64,000 nt of DNA from an uncultured Candidatus Sumerlaeota bacterium (lineage in GTDB: Bacteria; CAYMEV01): NCBI GenBank assembly GCA_964389675.1, contig CAYMEV010000009.1, positions 1 to 64,000 on the forward strand, given 5' to 3'. Below, in pieces: positions 24,876-28,261 of this stretch (its first letter is position 1; each line of letters begins with the position of its first letter). The notes under the pieces were generated by a model. That model was not told the origin of the DNA. It saw only the letters and a list, made by a program, of their open reading frames with translations, and did not search any database. Both the position numbers and the translations under genes were made by a program.

Positions 24876-25036
24876 ATAATATATTCCTGTTTTAATAAAA
24901 AGCCTACGAGCGTAAAGTTATAATTGTTTAATAAATTATATCAAGAAAAAAGGTCTATTCTGTCAAAACAAAATAGAAATGAATCAAAAGGGACGGTTCC
25001 TTTTGTTTCATAAACGGCCCATCAGAAACTAAGGAG

Positions 25037-25064
25037 AAAAAAAGCAGGGGGCTGCGCCCCCTGC
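25037..25064 (-). terminator. GC-rich hairpin plus U7 (terminator and/or DGR homing hairpin)
   Basis: Minus strand reads GCAGGGGGC-GCA-GCCCCCTGC-TTTTTTT, 31 nt after the stop of 25096..26586. Confidence 0.8.
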
Positions 25065-25095
25065 AACCCTAAAGTATCAAATTTCCAAATAATCT

Positions 25096-26586
25096 CTATT
25101 GTCCTCCTCGGACAGGCCAGGCATAGTGCGTGCCCGTCTTATAGCCACAGTACACATAGCCGCTGTCCAGGTTCACGTACCACGCACCGTCAGTAACGTC
25201 CGCAAGGGTAGTAGACGACCAGTAGTGGTAGGACTGAACACCGGTAAAGGGATGACCGTCAGGCAGTGCAGCACCATAGTGTGCAATATCTATAAGGCTG
25301 TGAAGCTCAAGGATATTGGGCAATCTCCAGTCATCATGGCCTGCGTGATCAAGGGCATTACAGTAATCAATCGCATCATCCCATGTCTTATACCCGTCAA
25401 TATTGGCATCTTTAGCCCACATAAGGCCTGTAAGGTTATCCGTTACCGTCCCGTCTCCATTATCAGTAAAACGCGGTACAGGCAAGGATACACCCATCTG
25501 ATAGTCTCCGTCGTCTCCCGTCCTGTAGGATGTCGACTGACCTGTCCTGGGAACTGGAGCAGGACCGTGCGATACGCCCCGCACTGCCCAGGTATAGATA
25601 GTATTTGTCTTATCAGCAAACCATGAATCTCCATAATCAATACCAACATACCACACAATATCTGTATCGCCTGCATAAGTAGAGGATGACCAGTACCAGT
25701 TCTGAACATTTATAAAGGGATGGCCGTCAGGAAGCCCCGGGCTGTATTCTCCCCTGTCCAAAAGGCTAAAAAGCTCACGCCTGTTAGGAAGCCGCCAGTC
25801 ATCACGGCCCCCATGGGTAAGTGAATTGCACCAGTCTATGGCATCATCCCAGGTTTTTTGCCCGTCAATATTAGCATTCTTTGTCCACATCAGCCCTGTT
25901 AATTTGTCTGTTACTGTCCCATTACCATGGTCAGTAAAACGCGGCACTGGCCACTGGACTCCCATCTGATAATCTCCGTCATCTCCATCACGATAGGGTG
26001 TCGTCTGCCCTGTCCTGGGTACAGGGGCAAAAGTGCTCTCCTGATGGGGATATACATAAAAGGATATTCCCTCATAGGTCCAGTTGGGAAGCTGCATTAC
26101 TGTATCCCTCTCATGTTCGCTGATCGTATAGAGGTGACCACCACGGACATGGTTGAAAAAACGGTATACAGGTGTGGTATCTGTTGCAAAGCTTGCATAT
26201 ACATAGTATTTAATGCCTTCATAGTTGTAATGGTCAAGCTGCATTACTTCATCTCTCTCTGCTTCATTTATCGTGTAGAAGTGTATACCTGTCCTGGTAT
26301 TGAAAAAACGGTATACAGCACAGGTTCCTTCTGCCTGTGTCTCATGGACATCAAATTTTATCCCCTCATATGTCCACTGGGGCAAATTCTCCATTATATA
26401 GTCCCTTTCCACTTCCGATATGGTGTAGAGATGACCGCCCCTGGCCGTATTGAAAAAACGGTATACCGGTACCTGTCCGTCACGGCTGTTAAAGAACATC
26501 TCCAGTATACCATCGCCTGACTGATAACCTGAAAGCAGAACAGATAAAAACAGTAATGCCAGAATACAAAAAATTGCCCGCCTCAT
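25096..26586 (-). CDS. Secreted protein: DUF5648 triple repeat + two DUF1566 (Lcl C-terminal, CLec-like) domains; candidate DGR target
   Basis: Signal peptide, three VYRFFN..HLYT repeats, two PRFTD.G.GTVTD.LTGLMW...DWRLPN..EL...YWSS...W.V...W.VRG domains. Confidence 0.88.
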   Translation of the reverse strand: MRRAIFCILALLFLSVLLSGYQSGDGILEMFFNSRDGQVPVYRFFNTARGGHLYTISEVERDYIMENLPQWTYEGIKFDVHETQAEGTCAVYRFFNTRTGIHFYTINEAERDEVMQLDHYNYEGIKYYVYASFATDTTPVYRFFNHVRGGHLYTISEHERDTVMQLPNWTYEGISFYVYPHQESTFAPVPRTGQTTPYRDGDDGDYQMGVQWPVPRFTDHGNGTVTDKLTGLMWTKNANIDGQKTWDDAIDWCNSLTHGGRDDWRLPNRRELFSLLDRGEYSPGLPDGHPFINVQNWYWSSSTYAGDTDIVWYVGIDYGDSWFADKTNTIYTWAVRGVSHGPAPVPRTGQSTSYRTGDDGDYQMGVSLPVPRFTDNGDGTVTDNLTGLMWAKDANIDGYKTWDDAIDYCNALDHAGHDDWRLPNILELHSLIDIAHYGAALPDGHPFTGVQSYHYWSSTTLADVTDGAWYVNLDSGYVYCGYKTGTHYAWPVRGGQ

Positions 26587-26755
26587 TTATCCCTCCTTAT
26601 TCTCCTGGTATATAATAAACATTTTTATTCTGAAAATCAGATGCATAGTCCCATACCCCGTAAATAATTTGCTGATTCAGATATCTATTATAATACATTA
26701 CGATAACTTAGCCAAATAGAGAACCCCTGAAGTAAAAAGAACCTTCCCTTTTGCT

Positions 26756-28261
26756 TCATTCTGTCTTTTCCCTCTTAATAGGACCGTCAGTGTGCTTCAG
26801 CTTCTTTTTTTCAGTGACAGAATTCTCTTTTGCATCTTTTATCTGCTCTTTTTTTTCCTGGACCGGGGCCTTCTTTTTCTGCACATTCACTTCTTTCATT
26901 ATCTGGCTCTGTTTTGTCTTTAATGACTCCTTCTGGCTTTTATCAAGCTTTGGAATGATCGCCTCAAACTTTTCGGAGGTACCGGTATCCAGTCCGGCTT
27001 TCTCAAGGTCAGCTGTCTTGATCGTAAGCCTTTCTGCCGGCATGACCTTCTCCAGAAACTTTGCCCCGTCCTGGAACTCCTGTACCTGCGAGGATTGCAG
27101 TTTCGGTTTTATCTTTGAGCTGAATATGCTGTCAGGAAGCACTCTCATCGATACATCACTTGAAACAAAATCCTTGGATGTTACAAATACATATGGATTA
27201 TATGACGGATGAGAATAATCATAATTATAATTCCTTATCCGGCTATGATACACATGAGGCAATGGAGCAGGCCTCCAGCCTACATAACCCCTGATATAGT
27301 AAAAGACCACCATTGGCGGGTGCCATTCAAAATCCGGCAGCCATACCCATCCGTACCAGTAGTCAAAATACCAGTATCCGTAATAATAGGTCAGATTCCA
27401 GGGCTCGAAAGATATCCATATCCAGTTCCTTATACCGGGGGACCACCTCCAGTAACCATGGACAAATGGCCTCCACTGGTAAGATACATAGGGTTTCCAG
27501 ACCCTTACTCCGCCTATAAACACCCAGTAGCCGTAAGGATTCAGATAATGGTCAAATACCGTATTATAGCTTTCAGTTTCTTCCTGTCCAAGGACATAAA
27601 GCTCGGATGAATGATAATAAAACGGGAAATTGAACCTGATCACCGCACCATTCAGGTCATCAATGAAATATTCAATCGTTCTTTCAAAATTCCTGAAATC
27701 TTCAGATATCTGATCATAAGGAATACGGTAAATTGCGTCACTGCTGCCACGGTATATATTCCTGCTATTTCTGTATATTTGATTCCTCCCTGCAAGCACC
27801 AGCGGGAAATCACTCCCATAACCGAATCCTGAGCTGCTTATAAATGAGTATACAGGGTGGTATTCCGGCCAGTAACTGCTCCATAATGGTATCTGGCTTT
27901 CACGGTAGCTGAAACTTAATCTCCTGTCCCTGCTTGCGATTGCAAAGAGAAATACAGGGCCGCCTGCATCCGCCAGGACATTGTAATACCTTGTCAGAAA
28001 TATGCTCCCTGGCCTGACATAATTACTTTGAGTATCGCTGTTAGGGAATAATATCCTCACATCGCCATCCATATCCAGCCCGTAAACAATAAGGTAAGAC
28101 GGCTCCGAGACAGTAACCCTTATGTCAACGCTCTGCCCCTTTCTGTATATATTGCCTTCTATCTGGCCTGAAAGATCAATCCTCACACCTGATGCATATG
28201 AACTGAGGCTTATAGCAATTAGCAGGCAAAGCATAAAAAAGTATAATCTGTGTTTTAACAT
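26756..28261 (-). CDS. Secreted DUF4384 + aromatic-rich DUF6600-like protein (paralog 1)
   Basis: Signal peptide, SEPSYLIVYGLDMDGDVRILFPN, YGYW...WRPFVHGYWRW...YGWVWLP...W.P; Lys-rich tail. Confidence 0.7.
   Translation of the reverse strand: MLKHRLYFFMLCLLIAISLSSYASGVRIDLSGQIEGNIYRKGQSVDIRVTVSEPSYLIVYGLDMDGDVRILFPNSDTQSNYVRPGSIFLTRYYNVLADAGGPVFLFAIASRDRRLSFSYRESQIPLWSSYWPEYHPVYSFISSSGFGYGSDFPLVLAGRNQIYRNSRNIYRGSSDAIYRIPYDQISEDFRNFERTIEYFIDDLNGAVIRFNFPFYYHSSELYVLGQEETESYNTVFDHYLNPYGYWVFIGGVRVWKPYVSYQWRPFVHGYWRWSPGIRNWIWISFEPWNLTYYYGYWYFDYWYGWVWLPDFEWHPPMVVFYYIRGYVGWRPAPLPHVYHSRIRNYNYDYSHPSYNPYVFVTSKDFVSSDVSMRVLPDSIFSSKIKPKLQSSQVQEFQDGAKFLEKVMPAERLTIKTADLEKAGLDTGTSEKFEAIIPKLDKSQKESLKTKQSQIMKEVNVQKKKAPVQEKKEQIKDAKENSVTEKKKLKHTDGPIKREKTE

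What the first reader, a model, noticed from the sequence alone, without database searches (positions are those of the whole stretch)
25096..25260. Candidate remote DGR target: variable-region signature in the last DUF1566 domain, with no RT or template repeat in the window
Seen: the 50 codons from 25260 to 25111 (minus strand) include none ending in A, while the equivalent stretch of the upstream DUF1566 copy in the same gene has eight (ATA, TCA x2, GCA x2, ACA x2, GGA). Scaffold residues use TCG/GCG/GTG/ACG, and the intervening positions are NNC/NNT (TAC CAC, CTT, GAC GTT, GAC GGT, TAC, GAC AGC, TAT, TAC TGT GGC TAT, GGC, CAC). Established: DGRs mutate adenines of AAC/AAT codons copied from a template repeat into C-terminal CLec-fold domains such as DUF1566, which leaves this pattern. 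Inference: a trans-acting DGR elsewhere in the genome diversifies, or recently diversified, the tip of a secreted chromosomal DUF5648-bearing protein, while the inner copy has drifted to host codon usage.
Basis: partly seen in the sequence, partly recalled or inferred. Interest (0 to 1): 0.85.

Follow-up and report, generated by a model that had tools for sequence, protein, structure and literature searches.

The report
DGR-type variable region, donor missing
The tip of a secreted lectin-like protein carries the target-side marks of a diversity-generating retroelement, a system that rewrites a short gene stretch, but the reverse transcriptase and template that should do the rewriting were not found in this genome assembly or in its sister species.

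Summary
None of the 50 named codons ends in A, against 21% in the rest of the gene. The A-free run is 52 codons, 25111..25266.

The gene (25096..26586, minus strand) encodes DUF5648 repeats plus two Lcl_C/DUF1566 C-type-lectin-like domains. Its last 38 codons match the scaffold of proven DGR template/variable repeats.

Among its four nearest homologues, 15 of 15 template-AAY columns vary, against 2 of 23 other columns. Against the closest DNA homologue, differences fall 13/10/5 on codon positions 1/2/3, while flanks and other paralogue pairs differ mostly at position 3.

A GC-rich end, a flank motif common after such variable regions, and a GC hairpin follow the stop codon.

No template repeat, DGR reverse transcriptase or Avd was found in this 94%-complete assembly or the 91%-complete sister species.

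Verdict: a DGR-written variable region (about 0.8). Whether it is still serviced by a donor outside the bin (0.45) or is a fossil (0.35) stays open. It is a new member of a known kind.

The parts
25096..26586 (-). Target gene, 496 aa: hydrophobic N-terminal leader, DUF5648 repeats and two Lcl_C/DUF1566 domains
   Evidence: ORF and translation. Pfam PF18885 (2.3e-43) and PF07603 (9.3e-62, two stretches). The leader is read from the sequence only and was not tested with a tool.
25576..26028 (-). Inner Lcl_C domain, with ordinary codon usage
   Evidence: 8 A-ending codons in the equivalent 50 codons; differences to the sister homologue are 9/11/13 on codon positions 1/2/3.
25099..25560 (-). Last Lcl_C domain with a C-type-lectin-like fold
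   Evidence: AlphaFold model with mean pLDDT 84.8 and pTM 0.78. Best PDB match is the Legionella Lcl C-terminal domain 8q4e_A (E 4.4e-6), followed by C-type-lectin-like proteins.
25108..25230 (-). Variable-region-like stretch: 38-codon scaffold from the Trp codon at 25221 to the Arg codon at 25108, plus three codons upstream
   Evidence: It matches the scaffold pattern of proven template/variable repeats. 15 of 15 template-AAY columns vary among 4 near homologues. Codon-position pattern is 13/10/5.
25111..25266 (-). Run of 52 codons with none ending in A
25101..25119 (-). GC-rich end of the variable region (IMH-like first part), coding the conserved Trp-Pro-Val-Arg-Gly-Gly end
   Evidence: The DNA is shared by 5 places in the assembly. 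In the proven cassette L225, homology between template and variable regions ends at the corresponding spot.
25071..25095 (-). AT-rich flank just after the stop codon, holding the 12-nt motif at 25080..25091 that recurs after such variable regions elsewhere
   Evidence: the motif lies within 60 nt after 42 of 231 variable-region-like ends, 0 of 12 template ends, and 0.0039 per 60 nt of background.
25044..25064 (-). GC-rich inverted repeat: 9-bp arms with a 3-nt loop (or 8 bp with 5 nt), followed by seven T at 25037..25043
   Evidence: It is conserved in the sister-species homologue, where no T run follows, and decayed in the orphan copy on contig 3.
24979..25011 (-). Second hairpin, a small repeat found elsewhere in the genome; probably not part of the target site
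   Evidence: its core has 23 copies in the assembly, about 9 of them beside genes of this family.

Best explanation
The last 38-43 codons of this secreted DUF5648 + 2x Lcl_C protein are a variable region of a diversity-generating retroelement (DGR). A template-repeat RNA is reverse-transcribed with random bases opposite its adenines. The cDNA replaces the region upstream of the GC-rich end, guided by the flank motif and GC hairpin after the stop codon. This rewrites about 16 surface residues of the lectin-like ligand-binding face. The gene is a remote target. The donor (template repeat, reverse transcriptase, probably Avd) is not on this contig or anywhere in the assembled bin, and I take it to lie outside the bin on an unbinned short contig or a mobile element.

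Shown: the codon signature, the scaffold match, the pattern of variation among homologues, the conserved flank, and the absence of a donor from the assemblies. Inferred: that retrohoming made the pattern, that the flank is the recognition site, and that a donor still exists. DGR origin of the region is about 0.8. The figure below is for the narrower claim that it is still, or was until very recently, serviced.
For: Codon signature:
- 0 of 52 codons end in A, against 21% in the rest of the gene. The run ranks 5th of 2317 long frames.

Scaffold and method check:
- The region fits a scaffold pattern that also picks up proven DGR cassettes. For 10 of 14 template-like hits, a partner had 15-24 mismatches, of which 0-3 were at non-A template positions.
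- Reverse transcriptase and bAvd genes lie beside such templates.
- Templates ending in the same Trp-Pro-Val-Arg motif exist in L130, L188/L190 and L225.

Variation among homologues:
- Among the window protein, P0003, P0004 and the sister-species homologue, 15 of 15 template-AAY columns vary against 2 of 23 others (Fisher 9e-9).
- Against the sister homologue, the region differs 13/10/5 on codon positions 1/2/3, with five double 1+2 changes.
- The rest of the pair differs 54:52 (positions 1+2: position 3; p 0.003). The paralogue pair C19/C8 differs 4/4/20 (p 1e-4).
- Third positions differ at 5 of 37 codons here, against 0.52-0.59 in the two flanking positional orthologues. None of the five involves A.

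Flank:
- From stop codon to hairpin, the 3' flank differs at about 4 of 52 non-loop positions between the two species. This is far less than synonymous sites, and no T run follows the hairpin in the sister species, so it is conserved for something other than plain termination.
- In cassette L225, two variable regions share this kind of flank and the template does not.
- DGR cassettes among the fetched loci often sit on very short contigs, which binning tends to drop.

Literature (passages read):
- PMC5758913 reports that DUF1566-class targets make up 14% of DGRs and that 10 DGRs have targets more than 100 kb away.
- PMC3240598 reports that a GC hairpin 4-34 bp after the variable region is needed for efficient homing.
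Against: - No donor was found. The only RVT_1 hit in the 93.8%-complete assembly is an AbiA-like enzyme. The 91%-complete sister species has none.
- tblastn with three DGR reverse transcriptases and three Avd proteins of this scaffold class gave nothing. Searches were likewise empty, and PF05635 reached only E 0.39.
- An ungapped scan that finds true templates at 0-3 non-A mismatches gave a minimum of 27 for any of 12 family tips (29 for this one). blastn was also negative.
- All 19 scaffold hits in the two genomes are coding tips, none AAY-rich.
- Nothing was found in phage or plasmid records, nor by a strict pattern in JGI metagenomes.
- P0003 and P0122 come from two sources and differ at 11 of 496 residues, yet have identical variable regions. 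The region is therefore not hypervariable on that time scale.
- The inner, non-DGR-like domain also varies preferentially at the same columns (12 of 15 against 5 of 23), so the protein-level pattern alone is not specific.
- The hairpin loop is not the GRNA loop described for phage DGRs.
- The flank motif's absence from templates rests on only 12 templates (42/231 against 0/12, p 0.23).
Confidence: 0.45

Rival explanations
1. Fossil target. The region was written by a DGR in an ancestor, or in this lineage after it split from its nearest homologues. The donor has since been lost, and the tip is now frozen and evolves by point mutation like any gene.
For: No donor was found in two assemblies of two species. 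The variable region is identical in two strain-level variants from different sources. The family shows decay and fixation: a frameshifted paralogue and a 5'-truncated orphan copy on contig 3. Other paralogue tips are under purifying selection (4/4/20 for C19/C8) and have lost scaffold residues. The two homologues also differ at 5 third positions and a few flank positions.
Against: No A-ending codon has arisen in 52 codons here or in the homologue, in a 40% GC genome. The non-coding flank is kept at about 4 changes in 52 positions while synonymous sites differ 0.27-0.59. Third positions of the region are more alike (0.14) than those of the rest of the same gene pair. That fits recent copying from similar templates better than long independent drift.
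Confidence: 0.35
2. No DGR was ever involved. The tip of a lectin-like binding domain is under ordinary diversifying selection in a paralogous family, and the codon pattern is chance or local codon bias.
For: The same columns also vary preferentially in the inner domain, which lacks the codon signature. These are the binding-site loops of the fold. No donor was found (same calls as above). One real gene elsewhere in the genome has a longer A3-free run.
Against: Point mutation under selection does not explain any of the following:
- Five codons changed at both positions 1 and 2 with position 3 kept.
- Third positions being more conserved inside the variable stretch than outside it.
- The total lack of A-ending codons.
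- A scaffold identical to proven templates.
- A conserved non-coding flank of the kind seen after serviced variable regions.
Confidence: 0.12
3. Mosaic by recombination. The tip was swapped in from another paralogue or another species by gene conversion or lateral transfer, and this produces the local pattern.
For: The gene sits between two genes that are adjacent in the sister species, so it has moved or been gained. Family genes are less diverged at third positions (0.2-0.35) than flanking orthologues (0.52-0.59). P0122 differs from P0003 in an N-terminal patch that resembles P0004. A small hairpin repeat flanks several family genes.
Against: No paralogue in either genome carries a similar tip. 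Recombination moves blocks. It does not create differences limited to codon positions 1-2 at template-AAY columns.
Confidence: 0.05

Closest known systems
DGR targets of the DUF1566/DUF823/Fib_succ_major class (CLec2; type example Legionella LdtA), as surveyed in PMC5758913 (passages read)
   Same: A C-terminal variable region in a C-type-lectin-like DUF1566 domain of a secreted or surface protein. The scaffold has variable codons where the template carries AAC/AAT. The end is GC-rich and is followed by an inverted repeat.
   Different: No template repeat, reverse transcriptase or Avd was found in the assembly. The domain is fused to DUF5648 repeats and a second, non-variable Lcl_C copy. That the Legionella element is the type example is taken from the paper, not tested here.
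Remote (non-adjacent) DGR targets such as those of Treponema denticola (PMC5758913)
   Same: The target gene is far from any cassette, as seen for 10 DGRs with 29 targets more than 100 kb away.
   Different: In those cases the template is known and differs only at adenines. Here the donor is unknown.
Bordetella phage BPP-1 Mtd target site: IMH plus hairpin/cruciform (PMC3240598, passages read)
   Same: A GC-rich stretch ends the variable region. A sequence not shared with the template follows, then a GC stem of 8-9 bp about 32 nt after the stop codon. The paper gives 7-10 bp stems at 4-34 bp.
   Different: The loop is 3-5 nt and not GRNA. The spacer carries its own conserved AT-rich motif. In the window a T run follows, so the hairpin may also terminate transcription.
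Legionella pneumophila Lcl C-terminal domain, PDB 8q4e
   Same: Best structural match of the modelled last domain (E 4.4e-6, TM 0.53/0.62, 24% identity). Pfam family PF07603.
   Different: Similarity of fold and family only. Nothing here tests ligand or function.

Membership tests
DGR target gene / variable region (DUF1566, C-type-lectin class) | Variable region lies in a C-type-lectin-fold domain, usually at the C-terminus | tested here: met
   PF07603 at 9.3e-62. Model pLDDT 84.8. Best match 8q4e_A, then C-type-lectin-like proteins. The stretch ends 3 codons before the stop codon.
DGR target gene / variable region (DUF1566, C-type-lectin class) | Sequence scaffold shared with proven template/variable repeat pairs | tested here: met
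   The same pattern finds the window's region and proven pairs with 0-3 non-A mismatches.
DGR target gene / variable region (DUF1566, C-type-lectin class) | A cognate template repeat that differs from the variable region almost only at template adenines | tested here: not met
   The scan of the whole assembly gave a minimum of 27 non-A mismatches for any family tip and 29 for this one. blastn was negative. None of 19 scaffold hits in this and the sister genome is AAY-rich. Fourteen template-like hits from elsewhere give 21-35 non-A mismatches. There was no match in phages, plasmids or the strict JGI pattern. The assembly is 93.8% complete, so absence from the organism is not shown.
DGR target gene / variable region (DUF1566, C-type-lectin class) | Variation among close relatives confined to codons that are AAC/AAT in templates, on codon positions 1-2 | tested here: met
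   15/15 against 2/23 columns. 13/10/5 by codon position against flanks dominated by position 3. Caveats: the inner domain shows a weaker version at protein level, and P0003 and P0122 have identical regions.
DGR target gene / variable region (DUF1566, C-type-lectin class) | IMH-like GC-rich end, plus sequence downstream that is not shared with the template | tested here: inconclusive
   The GC-rich end is present, and the flank motif is enriched after variable-region-like ends (42/231 against 0.0039 expected). In L225 it is shared by two variable regions but not the template. Without the cognate template, the IMH/IMH* contrast cannot be made for this gene. 0 of 12 templates is too few (p 0.23).
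DGR target gene / variable region (DUF1566, C-type-lectin class) | GC-rich inverted repeat downstream | tested here: met
   25044..25064 has 9-bp arms. It is conserved in the sister homologue. PMC5758913 finds this feature in only 34% of DGRs, and here it may double as a terminator.
Complete DGR system | DGR-clade reverse transcriptase in the genome | tested here: not met
   There is one RVT_1 hit, at C34:152-1927, and its best models are AbiA/DRT. There is none in the sister species. tblastn and protein searches with DGR enzymes of this class were negative. Those enzymes score 63-68 bits on RVT_1, so the family search would have seen one.
Complete DGR system | Accessory protein (Avd) | tested here: not met
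   PF05635 best E 0.39. PF22296 gave no match in either genome. tblastn with three Avd proteins gave a best E of 0.022. Avd is not universal.
Complete DGR system | Ongoing diversification within a population | not testable with these tools
   Only assembled contigs of the runs were available, and no raw reads. See Tried and rejected.

The most novel reading that the evidence does not exclude
The donor is carried on a mobile element that moves between the species of this deep-branching genus. It services chromosomal lectin genes in trans, recognising them by the conserved GC-rich end, AT-rich flank motif and G-rich hairpin. This would explain three things. The donor is missing from both binned genomes. 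Third positions of the region differ at only 0.14, while positional orthologues differ at 0.52-0.59. The same kind of flank follows Trp-Pro-Val-Arg-type tips in unrelated phyla. PMC5758913 expects remote targets only for non-mobile DGRs, so this would be an exception.
Probability: 0.15. Interest if true: 0.75.

Novelty: new member of a known kind. Interest (0 to 1): 0.45.

Why it matters
DGR surveys start from the reverse transcriptase, so targets whose donor is absent from a bin go uncounted. This case shows that a target can be recognised from its own DNA. The marks are codon structure, scaffold, position-specific variation among homologues and a conserved 3' flank. The organism belongs to a lineage with only two species-level genomes in the searched set.

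If the donor exists outside the bin, this organism tunes a secreted lectin-like binder by targeted hypermutation. If it is gone, the locus is a dated fossil of DGR loss. The recurring flank motif after such regions in many phyla is a candidate recognition element that could be tested in a tractable DGR.

Tried and rejected
Read-level variation. Only Logan contigs were available. The source-like run X1 holds the whole stretch without variants. Runs X2-X4 hold pieces identical to parts of the gene, but none covers 25096..25204 or the DNA downstream. At depth 2-5 this says nothing about variation. Loose ends at 25202 and 25207 in X3 come from contigs under 95% alike, so from other genes or organisms.

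Desulfonema magnum as a complete-genome model of a remote target. Its single matching tip has an early stop codon, and the 3' arm of its hairpin is replaced by a dispersed MITE-like repeat. The 12 or more genome-wide hits were to that repeat, not to the hairpin. No template-like match was seen. The 8 RVT_1 hits were not followed.

Other searches that gave nothing:
- Strict pattern in JGI metagenomes: 0 hits.
- Phage and plasmid records: no match.
- Among 80 metagenome loci encoding relatives, 3 held a template-like repeat (L188, L190, L225). None is cognate to this gene.
- L186 and L183, which end near such tips, are other paralogues of the sister species.
- The orphan copy on contig 3 was considered as a decayed template and rejected. 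It has one AAC codon only, and it shares the whole downstream flank with the genes.
- The run of 50 A3-free codons on contig 37 is a masked N stretch.

Other limits:
- The contigs of P0003/P0004 (ENA, 9985 nt) and P0122 (JGI, 3734 nt) could not be fetched.
- Supplementary tables of PMC5758913 were not opened. They may list similar tips.

Full report
WHAT IS THERE

The finding lies at the 3' end of a minus-strand gene, 25096..26586, of 496 codons. Pfam finds DUF5648 (2.3e-43) and two copies of the Lcl C-terminal domain, formerly DUF1566 (9.3e-62). The N-terminus is a hydrophobic leader, read from the sequence and not tested. A model of the last domain built on 36 aligned homologues has mean pLDDT 84.8. 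It matches the Legionella Lcl C-terminal domain best (8q4e_A, E 4.4e-6), followed by a long list of C-type-lectin-like proteins. The neighbours are a DUF6600/DUF4384 protein upstream and a type I phosphodiesterase downstream.

THE OBSERVATION

It is correct. None of the 50 named codons ends in A, and the run is 52 codons long. The rest of the gene has 21% A-ending codons. Across 2317 long open frames of the assembly, the run ranks 5th. The median longest run is 16 and the 99th percentile is 35. Three of the four longer runs are in frames that look non-coding.

IS IT A DGR-TYPE VARIABLE REGION?

I made a degenerate pattern of the scaffold and scanned one genome per species.

Among the 146 hits, 14 are rich in AAC/AAT, as templates are. 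For 10 of these 14, a partner hit differed at 15-24 places, of which only 0-3 were at non-A template positions. Reverse transcriptase genes (RVT_1, 63-68 bits) and bAvd genes lie beside such templates. So the scaffold is that of working DGRs, and the adenine test works.

Templates with the same Trp-Pro-Val-Arg end as the window's gene exist in L130 and in metagenome loci L188/L190 and L225. In L225 one template serves two regions, with 20/0 and 19/1 total/non-A mismatches.

VARIATION AMONG HOMOLOGUES

The nearest proteins are P0003 (81% identity), P0004 (78%) and a partial gene on contig 74 of the only other species of the genus, G001. Over the 38 scaffold columns, all 15 columns that are Asn in most templates vary among the four sequences. 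Only 2 of the 23 others vary (p 9e-9). The same test on the inner domain gives 12/15 against 5/23, so the protein-level pattern alone is not specific.

The DNA is more telling. Against the G001 homologue, the region differs at 13, 10 and 5 sites on codon positions 1, 2 and 3, with five codons changed at both 1 and 2. The rest of the same gene pair differs 54:52 (positions 1+2 against position 3; p 0.003). The paralogue pair C19/C8 differs 4/4/20 in the same stretch (p 1e-4). Of seven pairs compared, only this one has fewer third-position differences than first- or second-position differences in the last-domain tip. The pair with G1_C28 leans the same way (19/14/11).

The two positional orthologues beside the gene differ at 0.52 and 0.59 of third positions between the species. 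The figure is 0.14 inside the region.

THE 3' FLANK

After the stop codon come an AT-rich stretch, a G run and a 9-bp GC hairpin. From stop codon to hairpin, the window and the G001 homologue differ at about 4 of 52 non-loop positions. In G001 no T run follows the hairpin.

The same arrangement follows three other family genes and an orphan copy on contig 3. In cassette L225, the two variable regions share such a flank with each other but not with the template.

A 12-nt motif from it lies within 60 nt after 42 of 231 variable-region-like ends and after 0 of 12 template ends. The background is 0.0039 per 60 nt. The contrast with templates is not significant on its own (p 0.23). By eye, G-rich hairpins of similar sequence follow such tips in at least eight loci from other phyla. 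I did not test this formally.

The literature describes a 34-bp IMH with a GC-rich first part, and a GC hairpin 4-34 bp downstream that is needed for efficient homing (PMC5758913 and PMC3240598, passages read). The loop here is not the GRNA loop reported there.

THE DONOR

It was not found.
- The assembly (58 contigs, 93.8% complete) has one RVT_1 hit, an AbiA-like enzyme on contig 34.
- It has no Avd and nothing similar to three DGR reverse transcriptases of this class.
- An ungapped scan with 12 family tips gave no place with fewer than 27 non-A mismatches. blastn with short words found only paralogues.
- The sister species (91% complete) has no RVT_1 hit, no bAvd and no AAY-rich scaffold hit.
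- Phage and plasmid records and a strict pattern in JGI metagenomes gave nothing.

LIVE OR FOSSIL?

For a live or recently live target:
- There are no A-ending codons in either homologue.
- None of the five third-position differences involves A.
- The non-coding flank is conserved.
- Third positions are more alike than anywhere else in the gene pair.
- DGR cassettes often sit on short contigs that binning drops.

For a fossil:
- No donor was found in two genomes.
- P0003 and P0122 come from two sources and differ at 11 residues, yet have identical variable regions.
- The family shows decay: a frameshifted copy, a truncated orphan, and tips under purifying selection.

I put DGR origin at about 0.8, a live donor outside the bin at 0.45, a fossil at 0.35, no DGR at 0.12, and a recombination mosaic at 0.05.

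CONTEXT

The gene is not a positional orthologue of the G001 homologue. In G001 the DUF6600 gene and the phosphodiesterase gene are adjacent, with nothing between them. So the gene has moved or been gained. Family genes are less diverged at third positions (0.2-0.35) than the flanking orthologues.

COMPARISON AND NOVELTY

This is the DUF1566 class of DGR targets and the known phenomenon of remote targets (PMC5758913). Because the template and reverse transcriptase were searched for and not found, I do not file the locus as part of a demonstrated DGR system. I file it as a DGR-type variable region whose donor is missing.

It is a new member of a known kind, in a lineage with only two species in the searched set. 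The recurring flank motif and the possibility of a mobile donor are the parts worth following.

Noticed in passing
Own genome, contig 3, about 217264..217524 (minus strand); not in the window: An orphan copy of a variable-region-like tip in an intergenic gap. Homology to the window's gene starts exactly at the first scaffold codon and runs through the stop-codon position (now a sense codon), the flank motif and both hairpins. It has a 2-nt insertion. Upstream lies the tail of an unrelated beta-propeller-like reading frame on the other strand.
   Followed up: partly
Own genome, contig 3, about 26606..26880 (plus strand): A paralogue of the last Lcl_C domain with a frameshift at the start of its tip. 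It is probably a pseudogene.
   Followed up: no
Own genome, contig 34, 152..1927 (locus L016): The only reverse transcriptase in the assembly, 591 aa. Its best models are AbiA and defence-associated reverse transcriptases, which suggests an abortive-infection type defence gene.
   Followed up: partly
Window 24979..25011, and 22 other places in the genome: A small hairpin repeat whose core occurs 23 times in the assembly. About 9 copies lie beside genes of this Lcl_C family, sometimes on both sides. It may mark a cassette-like unit, or it may be a common terminator.
   Followed up: partly
Window 24876..26755 compared with G001 contig 15 (locus L281): In the sister species the DUF6600/DUF4384 gene and the phosphodiesterase gene are adjacent. 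The Lcl_C gene of the window is an insertion relative to that order, or a deletion there.
   Followed up: yes
Family genes of G000 and G001: Third-position differences between the species are 0.2-0.35 in most parts of the family genes but 0.52-0.59 in two flanking positional orthologues. This hints at exchange of family genes between the species or unusual constraint. Only two baseline genes were measured.
   Followed up: partly
Locus L254 (metagenome contig), four places: Four tandem genes each end in a tip of the same type, followed by nearly the same flank and G-rich hairpin. This looks like an array of targets.
   Followed up: no
Loci L054 and L261-L272 (Desulfonema magnum chromosome): A matching tip with an early stop codon, whose downstream hairpin is cut by a MITE-like repeat present in at least 12 copies, some as inverted pairs.
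   Followed up: partly
Proteins P0003, P0004 and P0122: P0122 differs from P0003 at 11 residues, all within the first 165. Several of them match P0004, which lies on the same contig as P0003. This looks like a recombination patch between tandem paralogues.
   Followed up: no
Own genome, contig 37, near 12553: A run of masked N inside a beta-propeller-like gene. It gave a false long run in the codon scan.
   Followed up: yes
Window 26756..28261 (minus strand): The upstream neighbour is a 501-aa protein with DUF4384 and DUF6600 domains, a very Trp/Tyr-rich middle and a Lys-rich tail.
   Followed up: no
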